Part shown: positions 450-36,959 of the stretch, one piece after another
Layout: every line of letters starts with the position of its first letter
Numbering within the stretch: position 1 is the first letter of the stretch
IMG/VR virus record: IMGVR_UViG_3300015181_000003
Location: 1-43,728 of that record
Length of the DNA: 43,728 nucleotides
Strand: one strand, 5' to 3'
DNA from: a virus
Lineage: Duplodnaviria; Heunggongvirae; Uroviricota; Caudoviricetes
Notes under the pieces: model-generated
The model's database searches: none
What the model was told of the DNA's origin: nothing
What the model saw: the letters and a program-made list of their open reading frames with translations, nothing else
Translations under genes and position numbers: made by a program

Positions 450-481
450 TTGCACACCCCAATATAATAGGGTACTATTCA
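450..481 (+). promoter_or_regulatory. conserved promoter/operator element (TTGCAC-N7-TATAAT-AGGGTACTATTCA) driving the 510..2097 module
   Basis: Perfect TATAAT at 463..468 about 40 nt upstream of ATG 510. Near-identical copies lie upstream of minus-strand operons at 22094..22125 and 20629..20660. Contains inverted repeat TAATAG-N4-CTATTC overlapping the -10. Confidence 0.45.
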
Positions 482-9782: not shown

Positions 9783-10100
9783 GTTTCTCCTTTCTCGATA
9801 AGTAAAGCCCCGCCTTAAAGCGGGGTGCTAGTCCTTATCATTTAAACATAGAAACGGCGTAATCTCAGTAAACCAGTTACTTTTTACACAAGCAATAGAC
9901 TATGGCCCTTCCGAACGCGTCAGCGTAACTACACTCAGGACTTACGTCCCGCTCCGTTACCTGCCCGCGCCGCGGTCGCTTGTTCATACTTCACAAGCTC
10001 AGGTGGAGCTTAGCATATTTTTAGTGAAAAGTCAACTATTCGAATAGTTTATTCCAACATTTACAATTCGGTGGAATAACTGGAATAATCACAGGCACTA

Positions 10101-10122
10101 AAAAGCCCCTTTCGGGGCTTCA
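10101..10122 (-). terminator. rho-independent terminator
   Basis: Stem AGCCCC / GGGGCT with loop TTTC, followed by a T5 run on the minus strand; directly after the gene ending at 10125. Confidence 0.6.
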
Positions 10123-17264: not shown

Positions 17265-17293
17265 AATATAATAGGGTCTAAGGTAATAGTCAA
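17265..17293 (-). promoter_or_regulatory. sigma70-like promoter (TTGACT-17-TATATT) for the small-gene operon
   Basis: Minus strand reads TTGACT, 17-nt spacer, TATATT; lies between a strong terminator and the first small ORFs. Confidence 0.45.
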
Positions 17294-17313
17294 CTAGTCA
17301 TTACAGAAAATAG

Positions 17314-19737: not shown

Positions 19738-20156
19738 CAGAAGTATTCCCCGCACGTTTTACATACTTTCGTACCGAACGGTGCGGAGCCATCTGTTACT
19801 ACATAATAGAAACTGTAGGGCCATCTCTGAGTATCGTCCTTACGGCAACCAGATTGTTCCGGCGTTACGGGCGTCGGGGTGCACCGACAATTTACCGTCG
19901 CCCCGGGCACATGTTCACCCACTACATAGCGCTGACCTGCGGGGATGTACCCACCTTTGCGGATAAGTTTGTACGCCTCCACGTCACCCGTAGCTTGGGC
20001 CAATGCCAGATGCAACTCCTTAATCTGCGCCGACGCGTCACGTAACTGATTCTTAAGTGACTGCACCTCATGCGCCAGGTCTTCGCACTGGTTGTTATTT
20101 ACCTGCTGCCGTAACTGGTCAATCAGGTACTCGAATACTTCGTTTTTATTACTCAT
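19737..20156 (-). CDS. coiled-coil protein with C-terminal Cys-rich domain (139 aa)
   Basis: ATG at 20156 with GGAGGAG SD (track start 20258 lies inside the upstream gene); CxC...C...CxxC cluster at the C-terminus. Confidence 0.45.
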   Translation of the reverse strand: MSNKNEVFEYLIDQLRQQVNNNQCEDLAHEVQSLKNQLRDASAQIKELHLALAQATGDVEAYKLIRKGGYIPAGQRYVVGEHVPGATVNCRCTPTPVTPEQSGCRKDDTQRWPYSFYYVVTDGSAPFGTKVCKTCGEYF

Positions 20157-20367
20157 CTTCTGTCTCCTCCCCGTTATATTCTTCGAACACAATGTCATCA
20201 TCTGCGGATAGCGCCCATCGGCCGTAACCAGTGTAATAGACCTCAAGTTCAGTGCCATTGCCGTCTATTATGTAGCAGCGGCTCTCGTCGCCGTCTTCTT
20301 TGAGGTGATACAAGTCGTTTTTAGTCAGCACCCAATAGCCATTGTAAGATTTGCATTCCAGGAACAT
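20149..20367 (-). CDS. hypothetical acidic protein (72 aa)
   Basis: Track ORF in the early operon; acidic C-terminus. Confidence 0.4.
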   Translation of the reverse strand: MFLECKSYNGYWVLTKNDLYHLKEDGDESRCYIIDGNGTELEVYYTGYGRWALSADDDIVFEEYNGEETEDE

Positions 20368-20389
20368 CTTCTGCCTCTCCTCTCGTTAG

Positions 20390-20599
20390 TTAAGCAACAA
20401 CCGCGACAATCACCGATACGCACAAGAAAACGGTTATTGCGAAAAATAGCATGAACGACCACTCAGATAACTTACCAATAGCTGTGCGGTATGTGACGTT
20501 TGTGCAATTACGTGTCATGTGCATATCCACAACACCGAAACCTACGCCTGCGGCGAACGCCAGCACTCCAACCAAGGCAACCGCGATAAAAATAATCAT
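20390..20599 (-). CDS. small membrane protein (69 aa)
   Basis: ATG at 20599 with GGATAAGGAA SD; two hydrophobic helices; directly downstream of a conserved promoter element. Confidence 0.45.
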   Translation of the reverse strand: MIIFIAVALVGVLAFAAGVGFGVVDMHMTRNCTNVTYRTAIGKLSEWSFMLFFAITVFLCVSVIVAVVA

Positions 20600-20628
20600 C
20601 TTCAAATTCCTTATCCCGTTTGTGTAAA

Positions 20629-20660
20629 TGAATAGTAGCCTATTCTATCTTAGCGTGCAA
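20629..20660 (-). promoter_or_regulatory. conserved promoter/operator element (minus strand: TTGCAC-N7-TAGAAT-AGGCTACTATTCA)
   Basis: Third copy of the element found at 450..481 and 22094..22125; contains perfect inverted repeat GAATAG-N4-CTATTC; about 40 nt upstream of ATG 20599. Confidence 0.45.
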
Positions 20661-20667
20661 GTAAATT

Positions 20668-20952
20668 TTATTGGTGTTTGTATTGTTGCATCTCCTGCAG
20701 CGCGGAGAATGCTTCAATAACTCCGTTAGCCTTTAGCCAGTGGTACACGAACACATCGCTCGGAGACGGCGCTCCAAGAATCCCGACGATATTTAGGTGT
20801 GACACTAACCCTTCAATTTCGCGCATGGAATAAATATCATGCGAACGACCGCTTTCAAGGGTTAGTGTCGCGTCACTGAATGGCGTGCCGTCGGTATGAC
20901 CTACGCCTGTCATGAAGCCGCGTAAGAATTCTATCTTCTCTCTGTCTGTCAT
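20668..20952 (-). CDS. hypothetical protein (94 aa)
   Basis: Track ORF; ATG preceded by a GGAGA SD. Confidence 0.45.
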   Translation of the reverse strand: MTDREKIEFLRGFMTGVGHTDGTPFSDATLTLESGRSHDIYSMREIEGLVSHLNIVGILGAPSPSDVFVYHWLKANGVIEAFSALQEMQQYKHQ

Positions 20953-21008
20953 TGTTGCGTCTCCTGCAATAGTCGCTTCGATTGTTGCGTTTTGTGAAAT
21001 AGAACAAA

Positions 21009-21043
21009 AATGAGAAAAATGATACGCTGCTGTGTAGCAGCGT
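21009..21043 (-). terminator. rho-independent terminator after DUF551-like gene
   Basis: Stem ACGCTGCT / AGCAGCGT with loop GTGT followed by a U-rich tract on the minus strand. Confidence 0.5.
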
Positions 21044-21085
21044 AAGTCACTCAGTAAAAGCCCAAACTATTGTTACAATATAACA

Positions 21086-21280
21086 TCACACTTCCGGCGG
21101 CTCTGGTAACGGCATCCAGTGAGTTACATCGTCAATATCGATGTTTGAGCTACGCGGCGCCCAACAATCCCAGAAACCGTCGCAATCCCACCACATCACC
21201 TCAACGTTACCACCATCCGAAACCAGCACATATTCAAAATCATCCGGCATCCGCTCGCTACACTTAATCCACCCACCCAT
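21086..21280 (-). CDS. DUF551-like phage protein
   Basis: 64 aa with CSERMP...W...W...VTHWMPLPEPPE pattern recalled from the DUF551 family. Confidence 0.55.
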   Translation of the reverse strand: MGGWIKCSERMPDDFEYVLVSDGGNVEVMWWDCDGFWDCWAPRSSNIDIDDVTHWMPLPEPPEV

Positions 21281-21283
21281 AAA

Positions 21284-21427
21284 TCACCTCTGATTCGCGA
21301 TAAACAACACACCAGCTTTCCACGCCCGCCACGCGAGACGGGTCTTAACATTTAGGTACTCTTTCTTTGAACCCTTGTTAACCGGCAGACCCTCGACGAC
21401 GGCCCACCGTTCGAATGCTTCTCTCAT
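21284..21427 (-). CDS. hypothetical protein (47 aa)
   Basis: Not in the track; ATG with GGAGG SD at 7-nt spacing; tightly packed between neighbours. Confidence 0.3.
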   Translation of the reverse strand: MREAFERWAVVEGLPVNKGSKKEYLNVKTRLAWRAWKAGVLFIANQR

Positions 21428-21430
21428 AAC

Positions 21431-21622
21431 TCAGTCCTCCAGAACTTCACATTCACGGTTACGTACGTACAGTTCCTCGCCGCGGTGTTCGACGAAGTGG
21501 CCAAAATCATTACTCGACGTAACCTCGAACTCATCCCCGACTGAGATACCAAAGTATCGCAGTGGGCGGTCGCCATAACCTGACGGCAACACATAATCAA
21601 CATCAGTTATACGTATTTTCAT
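21431..21622 (-). CDS. hypothetical protein (63 aa)
   Basis: ATG at 21622 with GAGGGAGG SD (track start 21631 is TTG). Confidence 0.4.
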   Translation of the reverse strand: MKIRITDVDYVLPSGYGDRPLRYFGISVGDEFEVTSSNDFGHFVEHRGEELYVRNRECEVLED

Positions 21623-21658
21623 TAACGGCAACCTCCCTCAGAGTCGTTGGCACGAGCA

Positions 21659-21877
21659 TCATGATTCGATGCCGTTGTGAATGATGCGGAAACAACATTG
21701 AAGAAAACTAACGGTTAAAGTCTCGTCCACAGTGTCCTCTAAATCCCATTCATCACCGTCTTCATCTAAAACGTATCGACGGCCGTCGTAATATACTCCT
21801 GACGAATATTTGTTACCTTTCACAAACCAATCCTGCACATCCTGGCTGGATCCAATACAAATTAATTCTTCCATCAC
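21659..21877 (-). CDS. hypothetical acidic protein (72 aa)
   Basis: Track ORF; start overlaps the upstream stop. Confidence 0.4.
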   Translation of the reverse strand: MMEELICIGSSQDVQDWFVKGNKYSSGVYYDGRRYVLDEDGDEWDLEDTVDETLTVSFLQCCFRIIHNGIES

Positions 21878-22062
21878 TTCGCCCCTTTGAATTTAAAATT
21901 GTTGCCGATGAGTTCTAAATATTCCGCGCTTACAGTTGCATGACCGCCAGTAAATACATTGCGAAGTTTACAAATAGAGGAACTGCCTCTGTTGTTGGTG
22001 GAAAATACGGAGTACAAACATCCCGACTTTTTACTACGGACCAACTGACCCTTCTTAAACAT
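21874..22062 (-). CDS. hypothetical protein (62 aa), first gene of the leftward early operon
   Basis: ATG at 22062 with GAGGG SD (track start 22071 is GTG); about 45 nt downstream of the conserved promoter element. Confidence 0.4.
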   Translation of the reverse strand: MFKKGQLVRSKKSGCLYSVFSTNNRGSSSICKLRNVFTGGHATVSAEYLELIGNNFKFKGAK

Positions 22063-22093
22063 AACCCTCACTCCTCTGTCCCGTTTCGATAAG

Positions 22094-22125
22094 TGAATAG
22101 TATCCTATTATATCGGGGTGTGCAA
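22094..22125 (-). promoter_or_regulatory. conserved promoter/operator element (minus strand: TTGCAC-N7-TATAAT-AGGATACTATTCA), leftward early promoter
   Basis: Perfect TATAAT on the minus strand at about 22112..22107; nearly identical to 450..481 (+) and 20629..20660 (-). Confidence 0.5.
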
Positions 22126-22197
22126 GAGAATAGTTACGTTGCCGTTGTGATTCTTCAGGCAGGGTTGTGCCTTTATTCTTATTACTTGGTAACTAAA

Positions 22198-22218
22198 GGG
22201 CAGGCCTTAAGCCTGCCC
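22198..22218. promoter_or_regulatory. perfect GC-rich hairpin/palindrome in the early control region
   Basis: GGGCAGGC-CTTAA-GCCTGCCC, 8-bp perfect stem. Confidence 0.35.
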
Positions 22219-22505
22219 AATAATCGTTACATTTTTACGGTTGCGAATCTACGGCATTTTAAGAAAATCAGATACTTAAGATATATGCTGCCGATGAGAA
22301 TAGAGCTTGCCCAGGGCAACCGGAGATACTTAGGAAGGAAAGTTACGATAATTCTCATGTTCAGTAAACTTTCGCTTAACACTTTGCTTGCGCTGCGCGC
22401 AGCTGCGTTTTAAGCGGTTTTACAAGGTGAACAGGAATCAAAGTAACTAAGATATAGAAGCACCTTAAACGAAGATTTTCATAATGTCAATAGGTGCAAT
22501 TATGT

Positions 22506-22534
22506 TTGATTTCCCATTATTCGCAATGTATACT
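22506..22534 (+). promoter_or_regulatory. candidate rightward early promoter (TTGATT-17-TATACT)
   Basis: -35-like TTGATT, 17-nt spacer, -10-like TATACT about 33 nt upstream of ATG 22567 with GAGGG SD. Confidence 0.4.
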
Positions 22535-22566
22535 TGGTTTCGTTAACTGATAATGAGGGCTTTGGA

Positions 22567-22737
22567 ATGACACAGAATGAAGTGGCAGAGCGTATCGGGG
22601 TTACCCGTCGCACGCTGAATAACTGGTTAAAGAGCGGGAAGTTCCCGGATTGTTGTATTCGCATTATGGGTCGTCGTCAGCCAGGTACATTTGACCCGGA
22701 GAAAGTGGAAGCGTGGATTAAGGAGAACGTAAAATGA
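22567..22737 (+). CDS. HTH DNA-binding protein (AlpA/excisionase-like small regulator)
   Basis: 56 aa from ATG 22567 (track start 22534 is TTG and overlaps the promoter); motif VAERIGVTRRTLNNWLKSGKFP. Confidence 0.55.
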   Translation: MTQNEVAERIGVTRRTLNNWLKSGKFPDCCIRIMGRRQPGTFDPEKVEAWIKENVK

Positions 22738-22967
22738 CCGAGTTCCAGTCACGCGTATTTACGGCGGTCGTTTCGCTAACACGTAAAAAAGGGTCGTGCA
22801 GCGTTATCGACTTGCGCCGTAGTTATTTTAAGTACTATAGTTCCGCCATTATTGAAGGGTCGTTGAAGGTGCTGGTTAAATCCGGTGTCGTGAAAAATGT
22901 TGGTGGGAAATATAGCGCCGTTGCAGAAGTTCGCGGAATGACCGCTACTTTAGAAGACCTGGAATAA
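22734..22967 (+). CDS. hypothetical protein (77 aa)
   Basis: ATG overlaps the upstream stop (ATGA). Confidence 0.45.
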   Translation: MTEFQSRVFTAVVSLTRKKGSCSVIDLRRSYFKYYSSAIIEGSLKVLVKSGVVKNVGGKYSAVAEVRGMTATLEDLE

Positions 22968-23025
22968 AAGAAAGCCCCGACGCGGTGAACGCCGAGGCCA
23001 AATTACTTGCTGAAGGAAATACAAC

Positions 23026-25266
23026 ATGTCCGATGTAATTTTATCCTACTCGTGGTCTCGTCGCAACGCGCGGGCGGAGAAAAAGGATATAAACGTCAGA
23101 ACCACACACACGGCAACACTGGACGACCTGAAAGAGTTAATCCGGCCGCTCGATGCTGTTCGTGACGGGATTAACCCCAAGACCGCGCCGGGGTATATCA
23201 CTGCCGCGTGTGACTCTACACACAGCACCGTAAAAGACCTGGAAACCGGTGACTTTAAGCAAGCGCGCAAAGGCTTCTTCTACCGCTGTGACGCGTCCGT
23301 AAGCAAATCATCGCTGGCGTACCTGGACTTTGACAGCGCAACGCCGGAAGAGTACCAGGAAGCGGTGCGCCTGGTTAAGCGCAGCCGCCTGGCTATGTGC
23401 CTCTACACCACGGCATCACATACTGACGAGTCACCGCGCTTTCGCGTAGTCATGCCGCTGGCCCGCCCGGTCGAAGGCGGTGACATCATTCGAGTTCGTC
23501 ACGGATTGCTGGAGCACTTCTTCAAAGGCATGGGCGCTGACCGCAGCGGGTTTACGCTGTCCCAGCCTATGTACCTGCCGCCGGTTGGCTCTCAGGTTAT
23601 CTGGTCGCGTCGCAACGACCTGATCGACCCGGACGAGTTACTGGAAGGCACCCCCGCCGTTGACGTTAGCAGCGCATCGGATTACCAGATACCTGAAGAA
23701 CTGCGCACCGCGTTTACTGATGCGTTCGAGGCACTGGCGTTTGAGTACGGCGGCATCATGACGCCCCGCGGCCTTAAGATGCCAGCTACACCAGAACACG
23801 CAGAAAACTACAGCGACCCGACGCCTCGCCCGGACGACTTCCTGTTGTGTTTTCCGCGCGAGGGATATGAAGCGCCGAACGTAACCATGATTCACGACAC
23901 CGACATTACGGCAACTGAAGGCATGTCTCCGAAAGAGGTGTGGAAGTATGCGTGCGACGCGACCGGGCTGCCGTTCAGTGAAGTGGCAGAGGCCATAGGT
24001 TGGGGTGCGCGTGAATCCGTTTCATGCAGCCTCGACGACCTGGAAGACGAGGATGACTCAGAGGAGTACGAGCTACCGGAACCTGTAAAGGCTGATTTCG
24101 TCGTAGAAGGGTATATGCCGTCGGATTGTATATGGGATATCGTCGGGGAGTCGGGCACATACAAATCGTTCTATACTCTGGGGATGATGTACCTTAGCGC
24201 CGCCGGATACCGGTTCGCCGGGGCGGACACCCAGCGTTGCCATCACTTCTATATCGACGGTGAGGGGGGTGCTGCTACACGTACACGTATTGACGCACTC
24301 GCGGCTAAATACGGCGAGGAAGGTAAAGATTATGTACACGTCATCGATATGGGCGAAGTCGGCAAACTGAAGAGCCTGATTAAGTTAATGCGCGAAACTG
24401 CTGGCGACGAGCCGATCGGCATGGTTGCGTTCGACACCCTTAACCAGACCCTGGCCCTGACGATTGATAAATTCGACGAGAACAGTTCATCGACGGCGAT
24501 TGGCATGGGTAAAGTTATCGCCATTCTGAAAGAAGTACGCGACGCAACTAAAGCCGCGGTAGGCGTTGTTCACCACACACCGAAAGGTGGAAAGAAAGCC
24601 CGTGGCAGCGGGGCACTGTATGCGGGTGTCGACGTGGAGCTAACAATTGAACGTGCGACCGACCGCCAGATAAACGTATACCACTCTAAATTTAAGCACG
24701 GGCCGCAACAGAAGACGGTTGGTATGGTGCTGGAGTCTGTACAGTTCCGTGAAGCCCCGCCGCCGAAAGAGTACCGTGCGGTTGAGTTCCTGGGTAACAC
24801 AGAGGAATACGGCACAATCATAAACCTCGACCTGCCGGAGCCGCATAAGGCACTTGTACTGATGCCGTGGGGCTTTGAGCCGTTTAAGACTGACGAGGAG
24901 AAAGAGCGGGAAGAAGGGCTGACAAAGGAAGGTAAAGAAAACGTAAAGAACGCTGTAAAACGTGGAAAGGATGAAGGGCGTAAGGAATCAATACTTGCCG
25001 CGCTGGAAGACCTGCAACAGTCAGACGACACCGGACTAGGTTTTACACAACGGCAGATAGTGGCGAATTCGGGCGACCACGCCATAACCAACCATCATCT
25101 CGAGAAGATGCTGAAAGACGGTGAGTTGATGCTTGGATGTGATATTAACGGTGAAGTTATACCTGGTACCTACCGGATACCAGAAAAGATGGGTGACAGA
25201 TTAAGGCCGAAGACAATATACGAACCGAATGAAATGCTAACAGTGACAGAGGAGGATTTGGAATAG
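23026..25266 (+). CDS. putative DNA primase/helicase (N-terminal primase-like region, central P-loop ATPase, Lys/Glu-rich tail)
   Basis: 746 aa. DxD-containing N-terminal region (LAYLDFDSA); Walker A-like GESGTYKS and hhhhD-like MVAFDT. Family assignment is by motif recall only. Confidence 0.5.
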   Translation: MSDVILSYSWSRRNARAEKKDINVRTTHTATLDDLKELIRPLDAVRDGINPKTAPGYITAACDSTHSTVKDLETGDFKQARKGFFYRCDASVSKSSLAYLDFDSATPEEYQEAVRLVKRSRLAMCLYTTASHTDESPRFRVVMPLARPVEGGDIIRVRHGLLEHFFKGMGADRSGFTLSQPMYLPPVGSQVIWSRRNDLIDPDELLEGTPAVDVSSASDYQIPEELRTAFTDAFEALAFEYGGIMTPRGLKMPATPEHAENYSDPTPRPDDFLLCFPREGYEAPNVTMIHDTDITATEGMSPKEVWKYACDATGLPFSEVAEAIGWGARESVSCSLDDLEDEDDSEEYELPEPVKADFVVEGYMPSDCIWDIVGESGTYKSFYTLGMMYLSAAGYRFAGADTQRCHHFYIDGEGGAATRTRIDALAAKYGEEGKDYVHVIDMGEVGKLKSLIKLMRETAGDEPIGMVAFDTLNQTLALTIDKFDENSSSTAIGMGKVIAILKEVRDATKAAVGVVHHTPKGGKKARGSGALYAGVDVELTIERATDRQINVYHSKFKHGPQQKTVGMVLESVQFREAPPPKEYRAVEFLGNTEEYGTIINLDLPEPHKALVLMPWGFEPFKTDEEKEREEGLTKEGKENVKNAVKRGKDEGRKESILAALEDLQQSDDTGLGFTQRQIVANSGDHAITNHHLEKMLKDGELMLGCDINGEVIPGTYRIPEKMGDRLRPKTIYEPNEMLTVTEEDLE

Positions 25267-25269
25267 GTA

Positions 25270-25295
25270 AAAAGAAAGGGGCGTTAAGCCCCTTC
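25270..25295 (-). terminator. terminator hairpin between convergent genes
   Basis: Stem AAGGGGC / GCCCCTT with loop GTTAA; U-rich on the minus-strand side. Confidence 0.45.
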
Positions 25296-25499
25296 ACCTA
25301 ATGCCAGCCACTTGGCGTCTACTTGCAGCACTTCCGCCAGTTTAAACAGCGTCGCCGGGCGGACGTCCTGAGTTACCCCAAGCGCAAGCTGGTTAATTGC
25401 GCCCTGGGAAACGCCAGCCAGGACCGCCAGACGGCGCTGGGAGATGCCGAGTTCTTTACGGCGTTGTTCTACACGGATGCCTAGTTCAGATGGTTGCAT
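25284..25499 (-). CDS. XRE-family (Cro/CI-type) HTH transcriptional regulator
   Basis: 71 aa with HTH ISQRRLAVLAGVSQGAINQL; AAGGAG SD; transcribed divergently from the 25625 operon across an operator-bearing region. Confidence 0.7.
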   Translation of the reverse strand: MQPSELGIRVEQRRKELGISQRRLAVLAGVSQGAINQLALGVTQDVRPATLFKLAEVLQVDAKWLALGEGA

Positions 25500-25563
25500 G
25501 TCAGTTACTCCTTAGTCAGTTGATATGCGAATAGTACCATATTAATTATTTTAGAAAAGCCCA

Positions 25564-25593
25564 TTGACAACATGAATAGCTAGCTATTATAGT
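25564..25593 (+). promoter_or_regulatory. sigma70-like promoter with embedded palindromic operator
   Basis: TTGACA at 25564..25569, TATAGT at 25588..25593 (18-nt spacer); spacer contains perfect palindrome AATAGCTAGCTATT. Confidence 0.5.
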
Positions 25594-25624
25594 TAGCCCA
25601 TACCAAACGGGAGGAGAGAAACAA

Positions 25625-26140
25625 ATGTTAGACCAATTCTTAAAATTACTGGAACGTTTCGTAGTCGCACATGAACTGATTGCTGCGAATAGTTCGAAAC
25701 AAGTTGTCGTCGCCGAAGTAGATGGGTTAACCGCAGAGACTAAAGCAGACGTAGTTCGTTCCGTTGTAAAAGCTGAAGAAACAAAAGAAATCCCAGTCGA
25801 AGGTGAAGACCCAGTCGAAGGTGAAGACCTTGTTGACACTAAACCGGCAGAAGAAGAGAAGCCTAAACGCAAGCCGCGTAAAGCTAAAGCCGAGGAACCG
25901 ACGCCAGAACCGGAAGAAGAGAAAGAAGAAGTCGATTATCAGTCTCTTCGTGACCAGATTCAGGCTATCGACGATGCGATTAACGAAGGTCCGAGCGATG
26001 CCGCATGCGATGACTCCGATGAACTGCTGGAAGAGTTCACTGGTAAGAAGATGAAGATTGCCGCGATTAAAGACGAAGACCTGGCTGAATACCTGGAACG
26101 CCTGACGGCAATCAAGAACAAGTATTTCGAAGAAGAATAA
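25625..26140 (+). CDS. acidic low-complexity protein (171 aa)
   Basis: GGAGGAG SD; Glu/Asp-rich with PVEGED x2 encoded by an 18-bp tandem repeat at 25793..25828. Confidence 0.5.
   Translation: MLDQFLKLLERFVVAHELIAANSSKQVVVAEVDGLTAETKADVVRSVVKAEETKEIPVEGEDPVEGEDLVDTKPAEEEKPKRKPRKAKAEEPTPEPEEEKEEVDYQSLRDQIQAIDDAINEGPSDAACDDSDELLEEFTGKKMKIAAIKDEDLAEYLERLTAIKNKYFEEE
25793..25828 (+). repeat. 18-bp perfect tandem repeat x2 (CCAGTCGAAGGTGAAGAC)
   Basis: Two exact adjacent copies inside the coding region of 25625..26140. Confidence 0.8.
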
Positions 26141-26393: not shown

Positions 26394-26662
26394 TTTACCA
26401 ACTCTACCGGGCCGTTGACAGGCGGGATAATACGGAGGCGCTATGGTTATTGCGTGCACCGTCCGGCGCGCACCAGATGGAAGAGATGGCGTACTTAGGA
26501 AAAGTACCGCGGCCTAAAGATATAGGCCGCCACGTGTCGCAGATTAAGCGCACGACTTTCGCCAAACCTGACTTTTATGTCTTCGAGTCAATGTATGGGT
26601 GGGCTATGCATTGTCATCACCAAACGCGACATTTAATTGACCAGTGGGAGAACAGGGTATGA
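26390..26662 (+). CDS. hypothetical protein (90 aa)
   Basis: ATG overlaps the upstream stop; its own stop overlaps the next ATG. Confidence 0.45.
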   Translation: MIYQLYRAVDRRDNTEALWLLRAPSGAHQMEEMAYLGKVPRPKDIGRHVSQIKRTTFAKPDFYVFESMYGWAMHCHHQTRHLIDQWENRV

Positions 26663-27928: not shown

Positions 27929-27957
27929 TTGACACCTGAATAGTTAGCTATTATAGT
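27929..27957 (+). promoter_or_regulatory. sigma70-like promoter with embedded operator
   Basis: TTGACA at 27929..27934, 17-nt spacer containing GAATAG-N4-CTATTA, TATAGT at 27952..27957. Confidence 0.5.
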
Positions 27958-28671: not shown

Positions 28672-28696
28672 AAGGCCCTTCATTGGGCCTTTTTAC
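28672..28696 (+). terminator. rho-independent terminator
   Basis: Stem AAGGCCC / GGGCCTT with loop TTCATTG followed by T5. Confidence 0.6.
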
Positions 28697-28706
28697 CGGA
28701 GTCAGA

Positions 28707-29181
28707 ATGGAACATATAAAAGATTTTCTAAGCTACGACCGAGAGACAGGGGTATTCACGTGGATACAGCCTACTTACCGTCGAGGGCGACCGGGAGACA
28801 TCGCGGGGTGCATCAATAGTAGTGGATACTGGCGAATTCCGTACATGGGTCGATATTACATGGCGCACAGGCTAGCGTGGTTTTTCGAGTATGGTGAATG
28901 GCCCGAAGGCCCTCTTGACCATATAAACCGTGACAGGTTAGACAATAGGATTTCTAACCTAAGGAAAGCAACAACCGCTGATAATGTGCGAAACGCTAAA
29001 AATAAGGGAGCTAGAACAGGAGTTAAGGGGGGTAGTTAAAAACGGCAACCGATTTTACGGGCGTGTGCATTTTAACTACAAAAGTTATAACGCCGGTAGC
29101 TACGGAACTCTTGAAGAAGCAGAAAGCGCTGTAAAGAAATTAAGAGAAAAACTGCACAAGGAATTTTATTGCCATGACTAG
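28707..29181 (+). pseudogene. HNH-AP2 homing endonuclease, split by a frameshift in a G6 run
   Basis: Frame 1 (28707..29039) carries the HNH motif YMAHRLAWFFEYGEWPEGPLDHINRDRLDNRISNLR. Frame 2 (28984..29181) carries an AP2-like domain GVVKNGNRFYGRVHFNYKSYNAGSYGTLEEAESA. Frames switch at GGGGGG 29027..29032; one extra G would fuse them. Confidence 0.55.
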
Positions 29182-31372
29182 TTTATTATACCTGGATACC
29201 GAGACGTTCTCTGGAGCGGACTTAAAGAAAGTCGGGTCGTATGCGTACGCGGAGCACCCAACGACAGAGGTTATAATTTGCACATATGCCGTTGATGATG
29301 GTCCTGTAGAAGTATGGGATTGCACTTCCGAACCAGTAATGCCAATAAGCCTACGTGTTGCGCTCCGTAATGTTATGCGCGGACGTATGAAAATCGTGGG
29401 CCATAACTTTTTAATGTTCGACCGCCTCATCATGAAACACTGCTGGGGTTTTGATATTCCCGTAAGTAACACCATTGATACGATGATTTGGGCGTTTCGT
29501 CACGCGCTGCCGGGTTCTCTCGATGCCTTGTGCCAAGTGCTGGGCGTATCTGCGGACAACGCGAAAGATAAACGCGGCAAGGCGCTGATTAAGCGTTTTT
29601 CTAAACCTACGCCAAAGAACTACAAAATTCGCCGGTACACCGCCGAGACACACCCTGATGAGTGGGCGCTGTTCATCAAGTACGCCGTGAGTGACATCAC
29701 TGCGATGCGTGAAGTATTCCATAAGCTGCCGCGGTGGGGTAACTCTGAGTTCGAGGACCGTGTACTGGAACTCGACCAGTTAATCAATGACCGCGGGTTT
29801 AAGGTTGACGTGGCACTGGCAGAAGCCGCGATTGAAGCCGTGGAGAAACACAAAGCACAGTTACAGGAAGAAGCCCAACGCAAATACGGCGGCTCGCTTA
29901 CCGGTAAAGACTTCCTTCCGATTCTACGTGAACTGGCTCCTGCGCACCGAATACACAACGCACAGAAATCGACGCTGAATGACCTGTTGGCAGACGATGA
30001 TTTACCTGACGACGCCCGCACGATTATCGAAATGCGACTCGGGGCCGCGTCCACCGCGTCAACGAAATATAACCCGCTGCTGTTGGGCCGCTCGTCGGAC
30101 GACCGCCGTCGTGGTTGCTTGCAGTACGGCGGGGCAAAACGCACTCTGCGATGGGCAGGTAAAGGCTTCCAGCCGCAGAACCTCGCGCGCGGGTACTATC
30201 ACGATGACGAACTGGATAAAGGCATTTCAGCGTTACTTAAGGGTCGCGCTCATCGCCGTTTCGACGTAGCCAAGCTAACGGCATCGACGGTTCGTAGCTG
30301 CATTATCCCGGAAGCAGGACATAAGTTTGTCGTCGCCGATTACTCGAACGTTGAAGGCCGGGGGCTTGCGTGGCTGGCTGGCGAAGAAACCGCGCTCGAT
30401 ACGTTCCGCGCTGGACTGGATATTTACTGCGTAACAGCAGGTAAGATGTTCGACATGGACCCCGACGATATTAAGAAAAACTTCAAGGAAATCAGACAGA
30501 TAGGCAAGGCTTGCGAGCTTGGCCTCGGCTATGAGGGCGGCGTCGGAGCGTTCGTTACATTCGCCAAAAACTTAGGTCTTGACCTTATTGAGATGGCAAA
30601 AACAATGGACGGTACATTCCCCGACCACATCTGGGCCGCTACCTCACGTGGGTATGAGTGGGCGCGAATTCAGGAAGCAAAGCGACCACCGCATCCGGGT
30701 GAAAAGGATGACAGACCATCGTATATTCTTGATAAGAAAGTGTGGCGCACATGTGACGCAATCAAGCGTATGTGGCGCGAGTCACACCCCGAAACAGTAG
30801 CGTTCTGGCGCGACCTTAAAGATGGAATCTTGGCCGCTGTTCGTAATCCTGGTCGTGAATTTTGGGCGGGAGCACACTTACGCAGGAATGGGGAAAGGGC
30901 CATCCGCATATGGCGTACTGTTGAATTTGATTCGTCCGGTAGGAAGGTTCCTGGTTGGTGGTTGTGTATGGAGTTGCCGTCAGGTCGCATCCTCTCGTAT
31001 CCGGGAATCGGGGTTAGTGTGACAAAGGAAACAGATGAAGACGGACGGGTGAACACAAATGTGCGAATCAAGTATCAAGGCGAAAACCAGTTAACCCGCC
31101 AATGGACTACCCTGTATACCCACGGCGGCAAAGCCTGTGAAAACATTGTTCAAGCGTTGTGCCGTGATTTACTCGCATATGCGATGATTAATGTTGAGGG
31201 TGGCGGGTACCCCATCGTGCTTTCGGTACACGATGAACTGGTGTGCGAAACTCCAGATGCGCCGGAATACAATGTCGCTGAACTCGAGCGGTTGATGTGC
31301 GAATTACCGGAATGGGCGGAGGGGTTCCCTCTTGTGGCGGAAGGACAGGAGTTAAAACGTTATGCTAAGTAA
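29174..31372 (+). CDS. DNA polymerase, family A, with 3'-5' exonuclease domain
   Basis: 732 aa; N-terminal exonuclease-like motif LYLDTETFS; long polymerase body. Confidence 0.85.
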   Translation: MTSLLYLDTETFSGADLKKVGSYAYAEHPTTEVIICTYAVDDGPVEVWDCTSEPVMPISLRVALRNVMRGRMKIVGHNFLMFDRLIMKHCWGFDIPVSNTIDTMIWAFRHALPGSLDALCQVLGVSADNAKDKRGKALIKRFSKPTPKNYKIRRYTAETHPDEWALFIKYAVSDITAMREVFHKLPRWGNSEFEDRVLELDQLINDRGFKVDVALAEAAIEAVEKHKAQLQEEAQRKYGGSLTGKDFLPILRELAPAHRIHNAQKSTLNDLLADDDLPDDARTIIEMRLGAASTASTKYNPLLLGRSSDDRRRGCLQYGGAKRTLRWAGKGFQPQNLARGYYHDDELDKGISALLKGRAHRRFDVAKLTASTVRSCIIPEAGHKFVVADYSNVEGRGLAWLAGEETALDTFRAGLDIYCVTAGKMFDMDPDDIKKNFKEIRQIGKACELGLGYEGGVGAFVTFAKNLGLDLIEMAKTMDGTFPDHIWAATSRGYEWARIQEAKRPPHPGEKDDRPSYILDKKVWRTCDAIKRMWRESHPETVAFWRDLKDGILAAVRNPGREFWAGAHLRRNGERAIRIWRTVEFDSSGRKVPGWWLCMELPSGRILSYPGIGVSVTKETDEDGRVNTNVRIKYQGENQLTRQWTTLYTHGGKACENIVQALCRDLLAYAMINVEGGGYPIVLSVHDELVCETPDAPEYNVAELERLMCELPEWAEGFPLVAEGQELKRYAK

Positions 31373-31770: not shown

Positions 31771-32069
31771 CACCGGAAGGCAAGATTCAGAAATACGCAA
31801 AAGAGCGATTCGAGGCCATTGGTGGCCTCGTCCGTAAGCTGTCATACGAAAACAGACGCGCGGCAATGGACCTGTTAGTGGTTCTCCCCCGCGGCGTCAT
31901 CTGGTTCGTCGAGGTCAAGAAAGACGGGAACACGAAGCCAGACCCGCACCAGCTACGGGAACATGAGAGATTCCGAAAACGTGGAGCTAATGTTTTTGTC
32001 GTTGGTTCGTTCAAACAGGTTGACGACCTAATAGCAGACTATTATAGTAGTCATACACCAACAATATAA
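31767..32069 (+). CDS. VRR-NUC domain nuclease
   Basis: 100 aa with DLLVVLPRGVIWFVEVKKDG...FRKRGANVFVV pattern recalled from the VRR-NUC family. Confidence 0.6.
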   Translation: MTPEGKIQKYAKERFEAIGGLVRKLSYENRRAAMDLLVVLPRGVIWFVEVKKDGNTKPDPHQLREHERFRKRGANVFVVGSFKQVDDLIADYYSSHTPTI

Positions 32070-32272: not shown

Positions 32273-33072
32273 ACTATTACAACGAATGGGATAAAGGTGC
32301 AGCCGCGTGGCTACGTGAATTAATAAAACAGGGCCACATACCTTTTGGGGTTGTAGATGAAAGAAGCATTACCGAAGTTAAGCCAGAAGACCTTGACGGG
32401 TTCACCCAGTGTCATTTTTTCGCTGGTATCGGCGGCTGGCCTCTCGCGCTCAGACTTGCGGGAGTTTCGGAAGATACGCCTTGCTGGACGGGAAGCCCGC
32501 CTTGCCAACCGTTTAGCGCGGCGGGAAAGCAACTCGGACAGTTCGACCCGAGACACCTCGCGCCAGTCTTCCTCGACCTCATCAGCGAGTGCCGCCCTCC
32601 AGTCCTCTTTGGGGAGCAGGTTGCGCCAGCAATTGCAAAATCGTGGATGTGCGATTTACAAAATCGCCTGGAAGGAGAAGACTACGCCGTCGGGTTTGCC
32701 GTACTCCCAGCTTGTGGCGTCGGTGCCCCGCACAAACGCGACAGACTGTTCTTCGGCGCGTACAACCTGGCCGAGTCCTTGTGCGCAGAACGGGGCCGTG
32801 AACGGCTACACGGATTGGGAAAAAGTAATCAAACGCAAGGAAGCAGGACGGCAGCAGAACCTACAGGACGTTGTGATTCTGGCGGTTTCTGGTCAGATGC
32901 TGATTGGCTCGGATGCAGGGACGGAAAATTCAGGCCAGTTAAACCCGGCACATTCCCGCTGGCTAATGGGATACCCGCCAGAGTGGGACGATTGCGCGGT
33001 TATGGCAATGCCATCGTCCCGCAAGTAGCCGCTGAATTTATAAAGGCATTCATGGGGGCGGTCAATGAGTAA
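32269..33072 (+). CDS. DNA (cytosine-5)-methyltransferase
   Basis: 267 aa with motif I FAGIGG, motif IV PPCQPFSAAG and C-terminal GNAIVPQV. Confidence 0.7.
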   Translation: MNYYNEWDKGAAAWLRELIKQGHIPFGVVDERSITEVKPEDLDGFTQCHFFAGIGGWPLALRLAGVSEDTPCWTGSPPCQPFSAAGKQLGQFDPRHLAPVFLDLISECRPPVLFGEQVAPAIAKSWMCDLQNRLEGEDYAVGFAVLPACGVGAPHKRDRLFFGAYNLAESLCAERGRERLHGLGKSNQTQGSRTAAEPTGRCDSGGFWSDADWLGCRDGKFRPVKPGTFPLANGIPARVGRLRGYGNAIVPQVAAEFIKAFMGAVNE

Positions 33073-34724: not shown

Positions 34725-36947
34725 TTAAAAGGAGGATACACAGTCCAGAACGCCATTTAGCATATGTACAAACTGGAATAGTTGCGTTCGAGTAGTAGTT
34801 TTACTTGTACCGTCCGCAAAACGGAACCTTACACCATCACTACCAACCAGGTTACCTATCGTAATACCTGACGGTACGCGTAGTGTTACTGTAGCCCCTA
34901 CCGGAACATTATATATACCATTTATCTGCGTAGTCCCCGATACGTTTATAATCATGGCATCCGATATCCATAGTGGCGTCATTGTGTTCGCGGCGGTGAT
35001 ATTTTGTTCTGTAAACACCGACCCTGACCCTGCGCTATCCGCGGTGTTGTTCTTAAAGTACCCTGTTGATATAGCGGTGATACTCTGACCGGTACTGGCT
35101 CCATTAACCTGGTTGCCCATTACGCGGGCACTTGCAGTGCAACGTATGCCGTAACCGGCGGACATAGTAACTTTGTTATTGATAACGTCAGTGTCGTAGC
35201 TTGCACTACCAGATACGCTTATACCCGTACCACTTGCAGCAGTCGACGAATCAATAACGTTACCCTGTATAAGTGAATTTTGAAGCCCTACTGCGGATAT
35301 ACCCGCAACAGAAGCATAAATAGAATTACCTGTAACCCTAAGGTACTTATGTGCACCTGATGATGCGGAGTCTTCCAATAACACCCCCTGTGTACCTGTC
35401 AGGCTGCAATCTATACTATTGTTAATTATAGCAACACGCGTAGAGGTTCTAGCTCTCACCCCGGCTCTGGAGCATCCACTTATACGGTTGCTGTCAACAA
35501 TAGAGTCAGTCCCATCAAGGATAATCCCATTAGAGCCACTGGTAGAAATAACGTTGTTAGCTATGATAAAACCCGTTACCGACCCGAAACCAATGCCAGC
35601 GGGCGACAATGTGCCAAAGTTATTAGTGTTTACACAAACGTTGTCTATGATATTCCCACTTATAACATGCGACCTGACATTTTGACCGTATATCCCCGAC
35701 CCATGAGTATACGGCGTCGATGGAGTTGCTGAGTTATAAAAGGTCCCATACACATCCTTGATTGTGTTGTTGCTTATCACCACATTATACAAGGACGCAC
35801 TAGACCGGTAACTTATAATTCCGTAGGAACTGCACCCTTTTATATCGTTCTCGGTGACGGTTATGTTAAAGGAGTCGGTATCACCAGAAACATTCTGAAG
35901 CATAACCCCATGCCCTACATTTCGGCAGGTATTACCCTTAACCAGCACATCATGCGCAAAGTCTACAAAAATAGCATTAGGACTCGCTACTGTAGATGAG
36001 GTCTGCGCCGTACTGGCATCGTAGCTTCCGTCGGTAGAGTAGTAACCATTAACAACCTTCACATCTGAAGATTCTGCCGTAACCAGTACAGAAGTTCCGA
36101 TACTTGACGTGTAACTTTTAATACCATCAATTACCACTCTGGTACTGTTACTGATAAGAACATTACAAGACAAGGTGCTAGACCCAGGGTTGCTAGCCAA
36201 ACTACGAGAAACTTGAATCCCTTTAATGGTTACATTATCTACACCATGTACCTTTAAAACCGCGTCTGTTTGGTTGGTGGATGTAATTTTACCCGGGCCG
36301 AAAATGTACGTATCTGATAGTACTATAAGCGGGTTTTGTACGGTATAAACACCATCTGGTACGTATATATAGCCTTTATTGTTCAGAGCACTTTGGATAT
36401 ATGCCGTCTGGTCCCCGGAAGCCCCAGCGGTGGCCCCGAAGTCAGTGATACTAATAGCCTCCTGGAATTTTTCGTGAGCCGTCCTTCCCACCGCACCATC
36501 TGCCACTATCTTGACACCTATTAAGTTGTCCCCCAGTAGTGCGTCTGATGTGCTGGCCAGGTCCTCACGCAAATCAGGGTCTGTCTGAGGCCCCCAGTCC
36601 GCATTACCGACAGGGTTAAACCCCGCCGGAACTATCACCGGCAGCGAGCCAGTGTACGAGTACCACGTTTTACTTACGGGGTCGTAAACAACTTTGTCGC
36701 GGTCGTTAACTGTTAGCGTCCCGCCGGTAGAGAAATCCCACGATACAGGAGAAAAGCCGGAGTCACGCAACACGGCGGGAAGTGTCTTCTGAGTCTGCCC
36801 GGTAACCTGGTTGGTGGCGTAATCAATATCCGCGCCACTGGCAACACCACCGGACTTGCCCGTGATAACCTCGGCTTCGAAAATCTGGTGTTTCTTGGCG
36901 GTTTGTAAATCCGCCAGACTTAAAACGTCACCGCATCCGCTTGACAT
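34725..36947 (-). CDS. tailspike protein with right-handed beta-helix (pectate-lyase-like depolymerase) region
   Basis: 740 aa, last gene of the tail operon; ITDFGATAGASGDQTAYIQSAL motif and many Asn/Gly/Ser/Thr-rich beta-helix-like repeats. Confidence 0.65.
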   Translation of the reverse strand: MSSGCGDVLSLADLQTAKKHQIFEAEVITGKSGGVASGADIDYATNQVTGQTQKTLPAVLRDSGFSPVSWDFSTGGTLTVNDRDKVVYDPVSKTWYSYTGSLPVIVPAGFNPVGNADWGPQTDPDLREDLASTSDALLGDNLIGVKIVADGAVGRTAHEKFQEAISITDFGATAGASGDQTAYIQSALNNKGYIYVPDGVYTVQNPLIVLSDTYIFGPGKITSTNQTDAVLKVHGVDNVTIKGIQVSRSLASNPGSSTLSCNVLISNSTRVVIDGIKSYTSSIGTSVLVTAESSDVKVVNGYYSTDGSYDASTAQTSSTVASPNAIFVDFAHDVLVKGNTCRNVGHGVMLQNVSGDTDSFNITVTENDIKGCSSYGIISYRSSASLYNVVISNNTIKDVYGTFYNSATPSTPYTHGSGIYGQNVRSHVISGNIIDNVCVNTNNFGTLSPAGIGFGSVTGFIIANNVISTSGSNGIILDGTDSIVDSNRISGCSRAGVRARTSTRVAIINNSIDCSLTGTQGVLLEDSASSGAHKYLRVTGNSIYASVAGISAVGLQNSLIQGNVIDSSTAASGTGISVSGSASYDTDVINNKVTMSAGYGIRCTASARVMGNQVNGASTGQSITAISTGYFKNNTADSAGSGSVFTEQNITAANTMTPLWISDAMIINVSGTTQINGIYNVPVGATVTLRVPSGITIGNLVGSDGVRFRFADGTSKTTTRTQLFQFVHMLNGVLDCVSSF

Positions 36948-36959
36948 ATAGAGTCCTCT

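What the first reader, a model, noticed from the sequence alone, without database searches (positions are those of the whole stretch)
25284..25624. Divergently transcribed XRE-family regulator next to operator-bearing promoters in a genome with no integrase
A 71-aa Cro/CI-type HTH gene (25284..25499, minus) is the only minus-strand gene in the 12-kb plus-strand replication block. The 125-bp region between it and the 25625 operon holds back-to-back promoter-like hexamers and two copies of the GAATAG / CTATT operator (one a perfect 14-bp palindrome). This resembles a repressor switch, yet no integrase, excisionase partner or long repressor was found. It may be the regulator that binds the operator family across the genome.
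Basis: partly seen in the sequence, partly recalled or inferred. Interest (0 to 1): 0.55.

Follow-up and report, generated by a model that had tools for sequence, protein, structure and literature searches.

The report
Cro-like repressor with promoter-embedded operators
A strictly lytic E. coli phage (genus Kagunavirus) encodes a 71-residue relative of phage 434 Cro, and a 14-bp palindrome it probably binds sits inside most of the phage's best host-type promoters, so this looks like a repressor-only timing circuit rather than a lysogeny switch; the parts are ordinary but the operator set appears undescribed.

Summary
ORF 25284..25499(-) is an HTH_3/XRE protein whose closest solved relative by sequence and by predicted fold is phage 434 Cro, also 71 aa. 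The 125-bp gap to the 25625 operon holds a near-consensus rightward promoter with the perfect palindrome AATAGCTAGCTATT in its spacer. A second, imperfect copy lies over the -10 of the regulator's own leftward promoter.

The motif AATAG-N4-CTATT is the commonest palindrome in the window: 10 hits with at most one mismatch against 1.1 expected. The good copies sit in sigma-70-like promoters in three different registers. Across 34 related phage loci the half-sites vary about 3-fold less than the 4-bp centre.

The window is a Kagunavirus genome. I found no integrase, no long repressor and no prophage copies.

Best reading (about 0.6): a dimeric Cro-type repressor that autoregulates and damps early and replication transcription units. 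Binding was not shown. The binder's identity is inferred: one relative that lacks the other small HTH protein keeps the operators, but the Jerseyvirus orthologue has a different recognition helix and the same motif.

This is a new member of a known kind, of modest interest.

The parts
25284..25499 (-). Gene for a 71-aa XRE/HTH_3 regulator resembling 434 Cro
   Evidence: Translation. Pfam HTH_3 E=1.2e-12. PHROG families annotated as transcriptional repressor or regulator. Best PDB sequence hit is 434 Cro, E=1.8e-6. AF2 model has five helices, pLDDT 85. Top Foldseek PDB hit is 2cro.
25275..25295 (-). Terminator-like stem-loop with T-run on the minus strand, overlapping the stop codon of the regulator gene
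   Evidence: 8 pairs, 5 of them G-C, tail CTTTTTACCT. There is no T-run on the + strand, so read-through from the helicase-primase gene into the antisense of the regulator gene is possible. That is inference.
25508..25513 (-). Shine-Dalgarno AAGGAG of the regulator gene
   Evidence: Read from the sequence. Nearly invariant in 33 distinct relatives (one has AAGGAA).
25530..25543 (.). Operator O_L, AATAGTACCATATT, covering the -10 (TACTAT, 25536->25531) and the TGn of the regulator's own promoter
   Evidence: Invariant in 33 of 34 relatives' loci. Matches the 'class B' operators at 14 of 16 positions.
25564..25593 (+). Rightward promoter P_R, TTGACA-N18-TATAGT, driving the 25625 operon
   Evidence: 11 of 12 consensus matches. 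The -35 and -10 are conserved in nearly all relatives.
25575..25588 (.). Operator O_R, the perfect palindrome AATAGCTAGCTATT, in the spacer of P_R and overlapping the first base of the -10
   Evidence: In 34 related loci the half-sites are invariant while three of the four centre positions vary.
27939..27952 (.). Operator in the spacer of TTGACA-N17-TATAGT (27929-27957), upstream of the ssDNA-binding protein and DNA polymerase genes
   Evidence: The orthologous promoter and operator are present in Jersey (32925-32953) and, with an altered motif, in Shemara.
32030..32043 (.). Operator in the spacer of TTGACG-N17-TATAGT (32020-32048), inside the 3' end of the resolvase gene and upstream of the methylase and helicase genes
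   Evidence: Jersey carries the equivalent promoter, annotated at 29238-29266.
22096..22109 (.). Operator over the -10 of a leftward TTGCAC-N17-TACTAT promoter (22125->22097) that drives the small early genes from 22071 downward
   Evidence: The half-sites and TTGCAC are conserved while the centre varies in 30 loci.
20631..20644 (.). Operator over the -10 of a leftward TTGCAC-N17-TACTAT promoter (20660->20632), upstream of the gene starting at 20605
466..479 (.). Operator over the -10 of a rightward TTGCAC-N17-TACTAT promoter (450-478), in a divergent intergenic region upstream of the phosphoesterase block
   Evidence: The Jersey equivalent is AATAGGCCACTATT at 16957.
17285..17298 (.). Imperfect operator (AATAGTCAACTAGT) overlapping the -35 of a leftward TTGACT-N17-TATATT promoter (17293->17265), upstream of the small genes and terminase/structural block
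   Evidence: Conserved in 24 loci. Present in Jersey at 42338 with the mismatch in the other half-site. Membership in the operator set is less certain.
22568..22737 (+). Small HTH_17/Xis-like DNA-binding protein; a rival candidate binder and not part of the core unit
   Evidence: Pfam HTH_17 E=3.8e-7. PHROG 'excisionase and transcriptional regulator'. 78% identical in Jersey and absent from Shemara. Absent from L006, which keeps the operators.

Best explanation
The 71-aa protein is a single-domain repressor of the 434-Cro type.

Inferred mechanism:
- It binds as a dimer to 14-bp operators AATAG-N4-CTATT, with contacted half-sites and an uncontacted, variable centre.
- The operators overlap the core of sigma-70-type phage promoters and would block host RNA polymerase.
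- One operator (O_L) covers the -10 of its own promoter, giving negative autoregulation.
- One operator (O_R) sits in the spacer of the divergent promoter of the 25625 operon.
- Further copies sit in the promoters of the ssDNA-binding/DNA polymerase operon, the methylase/helicase operon, two leftward small-gene operons and the phosphoesterase block. A weaker copy lies on the -35 of the promoter ahead of the terminase/structural block.
- The protein is made from incoming DNA. As it accumulates it would turn down early and replication transcription units and hold its own level steady.
- This is the lytic-phase role of Cro, used alone in a phage that has no CI, no integrase and no known lysogens.

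What is shown: the gene, the fold family, the promoters as consensus matches, the enrichment and placement of the motif, and its evolutionary constraint.

What is inferred: that this protein is the binder, that it dimerises, that binding represses, and the timing.
For: Protein:
- HTH_3 match.
- Best PDB match by sequence is 434 Cro, and by predicted fold also. The two proteins have the same 71-aa length and are 43% identical. The Gln that aligns with residue 28 of 434 Cro is invariant across the aligned proteins.

Operator:
- It has the 5-N4-5, 14-bp geometry of 434 and P22 operators. That geometry is from my own knowledge of those systems.
- 10 hits against 1.08 expected. It is the top palindrome in an unbiased census of both the window and phage Jersey. 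Jersey has 7 hits against 1.19 expected.
- The three best promoter-like sites in 20-40 kb all contain it.
- It occurs in three registers relative to the hexamers, centred at about -18.5, -12.5 and -33.5. That argues for an independent protein site and against an RNA polymerase contact element.
- In 34 Kagunavirus loci the half-sites carry 0.24 extra alleles per position, against 0.82 in the centre and 0.65 in the flanks.

Link between protein and operator:
- Both divergent promoters next to the regulator gene carry a site in Kagunavirus, Jerseyvirus and Cornellvirus.
- Cornellvirus has a 39%-identical orthologue and no HTH_17 protein. It shows an altered motif (ATTAG-N4-GTATT, 9 hits against 2.0 expected) at the equivalent promoter positions.
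- Locus L006 lacks the HTH_17 gene but keeps an identical XRE protein and 8 operator copies.
- Xis-type proteins such as 186 Apl bind direct repeats, not palindromes (PMC7498355, abstract seen).
Against: - No binding or expression data exist for this protein.
- Kagunavirus and Jerseyvirus share the same operator although their XRE proteins are only 49% identical. Their recognition-helix positions differ (SQGAINQ against SQSLITH). The Jersey helix is closer to that of Cornellvirus (TQSAISH), which has a different motif.
- The Cornellvirus motif is only weakly palindromic, and part of it could be -10 sequence.
- The leftward promoter is weak by consensus, and no transcription start site is mapped.
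- If every transcription unit carries an operator, it is unclear how late genes escape repression.
- The K1B4 transcriptome paper calls an HTH gene 'early' (PMC12645636). I could not verify that it is this orthologue.
Confidence: 0.6

Rival explanations
1. The operator family is real but is bound by a different factor. Candidates are the small HTH_17/Xis-like phage protein (about 22568..22737), another small phage protein, or a host regulator. The XRE protein would then do something else or act only locally.
For: The HTH_17 protein is 78% identical between Kagunavirus and Jerseyvirus, which share the motif. It is absent from Cornellvirus, which has a different motif. The XRE recognition helices do not track the operator across genera.
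Against: L006 lacks HTH_17; a 47-aa Cys-rich ORF sits in its place. It still has 8 operator copies and an identical XRE protein. Cornellvirus keeps operator-like elements at the same promoter positions without HTH_17. Xis-type proteins bind direct repeats (PMC7498355). A host factor is unlikely because Jerseyvirus and Cornellvirus share the host Salmonella but differ in motif. Resemblances to the TrpR, ArgR and FNR sites, recalled from memory, fail at key positions.
Confidence: 0.2
2. The palindrome is an intrinsic promoter feature and not a repressor site. It could be symmetric -10-like sequence of bidirectional promoters, or a spacer element read by RNA polymerase or a phage-modified polymerase.
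For: The right half CTATT runs into TATTAT/TATAGT -10-like sequence. Two sites (466, 22096) lie in divergent intergenic regions. The Cornellvirus motif's right half looks like a -10 (TATTAT or TAATAT).
Against: The same palindrome occurs in three different registers relative to the -35 and -10. The left half-site lies in the spacer, where sigma-70 promoters are usually unconstrained, yet it is invariant. At 22096 the putative opposite-strand -35 is not conserved.
Confidence: 0.08
3. The gene is the remnant or working core of a maintenance switch. By shutting all promoters it would allow a non-integrated carrier or plasmid-like state, or immunity to superinfection by related phages.
For: Operators lie on the promoters of most recognisable transcription units. 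One complete Kagunavirus genome is deposited as a circular 44-kb 'plasmid' of an E. coli blood isolate.
Against: There is no integrase, partition system or long cleavable repressor. No prophage copies were found. The genus is described as lytic (bioRxiv 10.1101/2024.09.12.612763; PMC13216507). A single 'plasmid' record may be contamination or an ongoing infection in the sequenced culture.
Confidence: 0.07

Closest known systems
Phage 434 Cro (PDB 2cro, 3cro, 1zug)
   Same: Same 71-aa length and single five-helix HTH domain. It is the best PDB hit by sequence (E=1.8e-6, 39-43% identity) and by predicted fold. Its operators are 14 bp with conserved outer bases and a variable 4-bp centre, and they overlap promoter cores. 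The gene is transcribed divergently from a neighbouring promoter.
   Different: There is no CI partner, no tripartite OR1-OR3 array and no lysogeny. The half-site is AATAG rather than ACAAG. The operators are spread over at least seven promoters around the genome rather than two control regions. The phage is not lambdoid.
DicA / CI-type prophage repressors (the label used in relatives' annotations)
   Same: An HTH_3 DNA-binding domain. tblastn finds 42% identity to dicA in a record titled Escherichia phage Rac.
   Different: Those proteins carry an extra C-terminal oligomerisation or cleavage domain and maintain prophage repression. This protein is the bare HTH domain in a phage with no prophage form.
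Restriction-modification controller (C) proteins (C.AhdI, C.BclI, C.Esp1396I)
   Same: Small XRE-fold dimers that appear among the fold hits. They bind palindromic boxes in their own promoter and act as a timing device on DNA that has just entered a cell.
   Different: There is no adjacent restriction endonuclease. The phage methyltransferase lies 7 kb away. The motif is unlike the C-box, and the sites lie in many promoters.
Phage 186 Apl and other Xis/HTH_17 regulators (relevant to the rival binder)
   Same: A small phage DNA-binding protein encoded at the head of an early operon that can repress early promoters.
   Different: They bind direct repeats one helical turn apart (PMC7498355). The motif here is an inverted repeat. 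The HTH_17 gene is dispensable for keeping the motif.

Membership tests
XRE / HTH_3 (Pfam PF01381) DNA-binding domain | Profile match above Pfam's gathering score | tested here: met
   48.1 bits against a cut-off of 23, E=1.2e-12, covering residues 11-65.
XRE / HTH_3 (Pfam PF01381) DNA-binding domain | Compact five-helix fold with helix 2-turn-helix 3 | tested here: met
   The AF2 model has helices at 5-17, 21-28, 32-39, 48-58 and 62-67, with pLDDT 85. Foldseek returns 2cro, the 434 repressor, SinR and P22 c2.
434-type Cro (lytic repressor of lambdoid phages) | Single-domain protein of about 70 aa with detectable sequence similarity to 434 Cro | tested here: met
   71 aa. phmmer E=1.8e-6 against 1zug/2cro/3cro. 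43% identity in the alignment.
434-type Cro (lytic repressor of lambdoid phages) | 14-bp pseudo-palindromic operators with conserved half-sites and a variable centre, overlapping promoters | tested here: met
   AATAG-N4-CTATT is enriched, lies inside promoters, and has constrained half-sites with a free centre. This is shown in silico only.
434-type Cro (lytic repressor of lambdoid phages) | Paired with a divergently transcribed CI repressor that shares a three-operator region | tested here: not met
   The divergent gene is phrog_3127 of unknown function, and it is mosaic among relatives. There is one operator per promoter. Relatives have no CI-like gene.
434-type Cro (lytic repressor of lambdoid phages) | Sequence-specific dimer binding to the operators | not testable with these tools
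   This needs EMSA or footprinting, or at least a protein-DNA complex model.
Temperate lysis-lysogeny module | Integrase (or another maintenance function) and a long cleavable repressor; prophage copies in host genomes | tested here: not met
   No integrase or CI appears in the annotated relatives. There are 0 prophage matches in 5,426 E. coli genomes. The only close match among GTDB species representatives is one Jersey-like contig. An Xis-like HTH_17 domain is present but has no partner integrase.
Restriction-modification controller protein | Gene adjacent to and co-regulating a restriction endonuclease gene, with C-boxes upstream | tested here: not met
   The neighbours are the helicase-primase gene and phrog_3127. 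No REase domain was found in the proteins scanned, which is not an exhaustive scan of the window.
Toxin-antitoxin antitoxin (HigA/HipB type) | Co-transcribed with a toxin gene | tested here: not met
   The gene is monocistronic with its own terminator. The neighbouring genes are convergent or divergent.

The most novel reading that the evidence does not exclude
The one small repressor and its promoter-embedded operators form a genome-wide off-switch. That switch would let a supposedly strictly virulent phage enter a non-integrated, plasmid-like carrier state, or make infected cells immune to related phages. This would explain a complete Kagunavirus genome deposited as a circular 'plasmid' of a clinical E. 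coli isolate.
Probability: 0.07. Interest if true: 0.65.

Novelty: new member of a known kind. Interest (0 to 1): 0.35.

Why it matters
Kagunavirus and Jerseyvirus phages are widely isolated as therapy and biocontrol candidates. Their genome records routinely label this gene 'transcriptional repressor (DicA)', which can be read as a sign of a temperate lifestyle.

Showing that it is a Cro-only regulator with a defined operator set would clarify that safety question. At least seven sites sit in the promoters of early, replication and possibly late units. That would also give a simple, testable model of how a small virulent siphovirus that relies on host RNA polymerase programmes its transcription. 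The compact repressor/operator/promoter parts could be used to engineer these phages.

Conceptually it is not surprising. It extends the well-known Cro/operator logic to a lytic lineage.

Tried and rejected
- Cornellvirus (Shemara) palindrome census: no over-represented perfect palindrome. The motif there (ATTAG-N4-GTATT) was found only by comparing orthologous promoters, and it is weakly symmetric.
- Serratia phage Scapp: it has the same replication module and the same XRE position. It is GC-rich and shows no repeated palindrome family, so it gave no independent test.
- K1B4 transcriptome paper: the text says an HTH gene is early. The supplementary files that are held list only host genes, so I could not confirm the orthologue.
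- Rfam scan of the whole window: nothing.
- GTDB scan for prophage relatives: only unrelated XRE proteins plus one Jersey-like contig.
- Host-factor look-alikes recalled from memory (TrpR CTAG operator, ARG box, FNR 5-N4-5 site): considered and rejected on sequence and on the difference between genera that share one host.
- A second, opposite-strand promoter at the 'class B' sites: the -35 candidates are poorly conserved, so I do not claim bidirectional promoters.
- Covariation between the XRE recognition helix and the operator across three genera: no clean pattern.
- Literature searches for a described operator family or a functional study of this protein in Guernseyvirinae: none found.

Full report
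**What the window is.** The region around the finding is 85-93% identical to many Escherichia phages of the genus Kagunavirus (subfamily Guernseyvirinae), and more distantly to Salmonella Jerseyvirus phages. In the annotated relative Ro145clw the gene order is the same:
- a leftward structural/lysis/small-gene block;
- a rightward replication block, containing the helicase-primase, a DUF2800 nuclease, an Enc34-type ssDNA-binding protein, DNA polymerase A, a resolvase, a methylase and a helicase;
- a leftward tail block.

Pfam and PHROG scans of the window's own ORFs agree with this layout. GC skew matches the strand blocks.

**Check of the observation.**
- ORF 25284..25499(-) encodes MQPSELGIRVEQRRKELGISQRRLAVLAGVSQGAINQLALGVTQDVRPATLFKLAEVLQVDAKWLALGEGA. 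It is an HTH_3 protein (48.1 bits against a cut-off of 23).
- It is the only opposite-strand gene in the + block, both here and in the annotated relatives.
- The gap to the next + gene is 25500-25624, which is 125 bp.
- The rightward promoter TTGACA-N18-TATAGT (25564-25593) matches 11 of 12 consensus positions. The perfect palindrome AATAGCTAGCTATT (25575-25588) fills its spacer and touches the -10.
- On the other strand the second copy, read as AATATGGTACTATT (25543->25530), contains TACTAT preceded by TGn, an extended -10. It lies about 25 nt upstream of an AAGGAG ribosome-binding site and the ATG. Its -35 is poor.
- The 'mismatch' in this copy (T for G) is the base that creates the TG.
- A minus-strand terminator-like hairpin (25295->25275) follows the gene.

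**The motif is not chance.**
- AATAG-N4-CTATT with at most one mismatch occurs 10 times against 1.08 expected; none of 100 shuffles reached 10.
- In a census of every 5-N(0-8)-5 perfect palindrome it ranks first in the window (6 copies, ahead of terminator stems) and first in phage Jersey.
- By a rough gene map, five of the six perfect copies fall in the roughly 9% of the genome that is intergenic. The sixth lies at the 3' end of the resolvase gene, just upstream of the next gene.

**Where the copies sit.**
- Class A (25575, 27939, 32030; all rightward): TTGAC(A/G)-N4/5-AATAG-N4-CTATT-ATAGT. The operator lies in the spacer, centred near -18.5. These are the three best promoter-like sites in 20-40 kb.
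- Class B (466 rightward; 20631 and 22096 leftward; and O_L at 25530): TTGCAC-N10-AATAGGnTACTATT. The -10 (TACTAT) lies inside the operator, centred near -12.5. An alternative upstream -10 (TATAAT/TAGAAT/TAATAT) would also be covered. O_L has the operator and -10 of this class but lacks the TTGCAC -35.
- Class C (17285 leftward): the -35 TTGACT lies inside an imperfect copy. This promoter precedes the small genes, the terminase and the structural genes.
- Two further one-mismatch hits (10027, 11655) are of uncertain status.

The same palindrome in three registers argues for an independent protein-binding site and against an element contacted by RNA polymerase.

**Evolutionary constraint.**
- I fetched 61 loci from IMG/VR with the protein. 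The 33 Kagunavirus loci, plus Ro145clw, were used for comparison.
- The 125-bp control region is strongly conserved. The first gene to the right of P_R is mosaic, with at least four different genes.
- At O_R the half-sites are invariant in 34 loci. Three of the four centre positions vary (CTAG here; CGAA, TGAA, CTAA, CAAA and others elsewhere).
- I located orthologous positions for seven sites by their flanks alone. Half-site positions carry 0.24 extra alleles per position, against 0.82 in the centre and 0.65 in the flanks.
- This is the pattern expected of a dimeric HTH operator with uncontacted central base pairs.

**Other genera.**
- Jerseyvirus (phage Jersey) has the same motif: 7 hits against 1.19 expected, again in promoters, including the orthologues of 27939, 32030, 466 and 17285. 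Degenerate copies lie at both promoters flanking its XRE gene.
- Cornellvirus (Shemara) has no copy. It shows ATTAG-N4-GTATT or GTAAT, 9 hits against 2.0 expected, at the equivalent places: the ssDNA-binding protein promoter spacer and two sites flanking its XRE gene. That motif is only weakly symmetric (half-sites AwTAs), and its right half overlaps -10-like sequence.
- In Cornellvirus and in Serratia phage Scapp the XRE gene heads the primase/helicase operon, still divergent from the replication operon.

**What the protein is.**
- The best solved relative by sequence is phage 434 Cro (E=1.8e-6), followed by the 434 repressor, HipB, HigA and P22 c2.
- A single-sequence AF2 model (pLDDT 85) has five helices. 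Its top Foldseek PDB hit is 2cro, with TM 0.70-0.76.
- It is 43% identical to 434 Cro and has the same length, 71 aa.
- From my own knowledge of the system, 434 operators are 14 bp (ACAAG-N4-CTTGT-like), with contacted outer bases and a non-contacted centre. Gln28 at the start of helix 3 reads the outer adenine.
- The residue aligned with Gln28 is invariant across the aligned proteins. The next residue (Gln29 in 434) is Gly here, and operator positions 2-3 differ (AT against CA). This is consistent with the model but is inference only.

**Who binds the operators?**
- The window encodes a second small DNA-binding protein, an HTH_17/Xis-like protein at about 22568..22737.
- That protein is 78% identical in Jersey and absent from Shemara. 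Taken alone, this would fit it being the binder.
- Three points argue against it:
  - Locus L006 has an XRE protein identical to the window's and 8 operator copies within +/-10 kb, but no HTH_17 gene. A 47-aa Cys-rich ORF and a 149-aa ORF sit there instead.
  - Cornellvirus keeps operator-like elements at the same promoter positions without HTH_17.
  - Xis-type regulators such as 186 Apl bind direct repeats (PMC7498355).
- A host factor is unlikely because Jerseyvirus and Cornellvirus share Salmonella as host yet differ in motif.
- One point counts against the XRE protein. The Kagunavirus and Jerseyvirus orthologues are only 49% identical, with different helix-3 residues (SQGAINQ against SQSLITH), yet they share the operator. 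Jersey's helix resembles Shemara's (TQSAISH).
- On balance I put about 0.6 on the XRE protein as the binder and repressor.

**Lifestyle.**
- No integrase or CI-like gene is annotated in the relatives.
- The 1.4-kb region has no prophage copy in 5,426 complete E. coli genomes.
- A scan of one genome per GTDB species found only unrelated XRE proteins and one Jersey-like contig.
- Published descriptions treat the group as lytic.
- I found no paper describing the operator family or testing this protein.
- A transcriptome study of Kagunavirus K1B4 lists an HTH gene among four early genes. I could not confirm that it is this orthologue.

**Mechanism proposed.**
- Shown: the anatomy, the enrichment, the placement and the constraint.
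- Inferred:
  - The protein is made early from an extended -10 promoter.
  - As a dimer it occupies O_L, giving autoregulation.
  - It also occupies O_R and the other promoter-embedded operators, occluding host RNA polymerase.
  - This turns down early and replication operons as infection proceeds.
  - Imperfect sites (its own promoter, and the class C site ahead of the structural genes) may bind more weakly and so be shut off later or not at all.
  - Because the minus-strand hairpin has no T-run on the + strand, read-through from the helicase-primase gene could run antisense to the regulator gene. This is speculative.

**Verdict.** This is a Cro-only regulatory circuit in a virulent phage, not a lysis-lysogeny switch. 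I rate it a new member of a known kind, with an operator set that appears undescribed.

Noticed in passing
window 25536-25567, 25304-25335, 26489-26520, 9718-9747; locus L095 (E. coli NZ_AP025214.2, type I-E CRISPR array next to iap/cas2e): Four of the nine spacers in one natural E. coli type I-E CRISPR array match this phage genus. One matches the XRE/P_R control region at 32/32. The adjacent spacer matches the XRE gene (31/32 here, 32/32 in L037). One matches the 26390 gene (31/32) and one a structural-region gene (28/30).
   Followed up: partly
locus L096 = CP088689.1 (pC16EC0033-2, 44,086 bp, circular): A near-complete Kagunavirus genome, including the XRE gene, a RepA-type helicase and the DUF2800 nuclease, is deposited as a non-mobilizable 'plasmid' of an E. 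coli blood isolate. This could be a carrier state, an ongoing infection in the culture, or contamination.
   Followed up: partly
window 22110-22560: A stretch of about 460 bp with no convincing ORF lies between the divergent early operons. It holds a strong hairpin (22198-22218), two copies of GAGAATAG (22126 and 22297), and a promoter-like site (22506-22534) just upstream of the HTH_17 gene that has no operator. There is no Rfam match. It could be an origin or a leader; I did not study it.
   Followed up: no
loci L005-L037 compared with window 22534-26140: There is strong mosaicism around a conserved control region. The first gene downstream of P_R differs among relatives (at least four alternatives). 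The helicase-primase is replaced by a 30-32%-identical type in seven loci. In L006 the HTH_17 gene is replaced by a 47-aa CxxC...CxxC ORF.
   Followed up: partly
window 10027-10120: A one-mismatch operator copy (10027-10040) overlaps a perfect 16-bp 'everted' palindrome AACTATTCGAATAGTT (10034-10049). It is followed by a +-strand extended -10 promoter-like site (10060-10089) and, within 15 nt, a terminator hairpin (10103-10120). The promoter-like site is conserved in Jersey (7250-7221).
   Followed up: no
L003 (Shemara) 35330-38169; L066 (Scapp) 19992-22737: In Cornellvirus and Scappvirus the XRE gene is the first gene of the primase/helicase operon. In Kagunavirus and Jerseyvirus the helicase-primase is inverted so that it converges on the XRE gene. 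The XRE gene's position divergent from the DUF2800 nuclease / DUF2815 ssDNA-binding protein / DNA polymerase A replication operon is conserved beyond the subfamily.
   Followed up: partly
window 2126-2758 (-) and 28683-29039 (+): Two HNH homing-endonuclease-like genes (phrog_953, phrog_99) are inserted in the structural and replication blocks.
   Followed up: no
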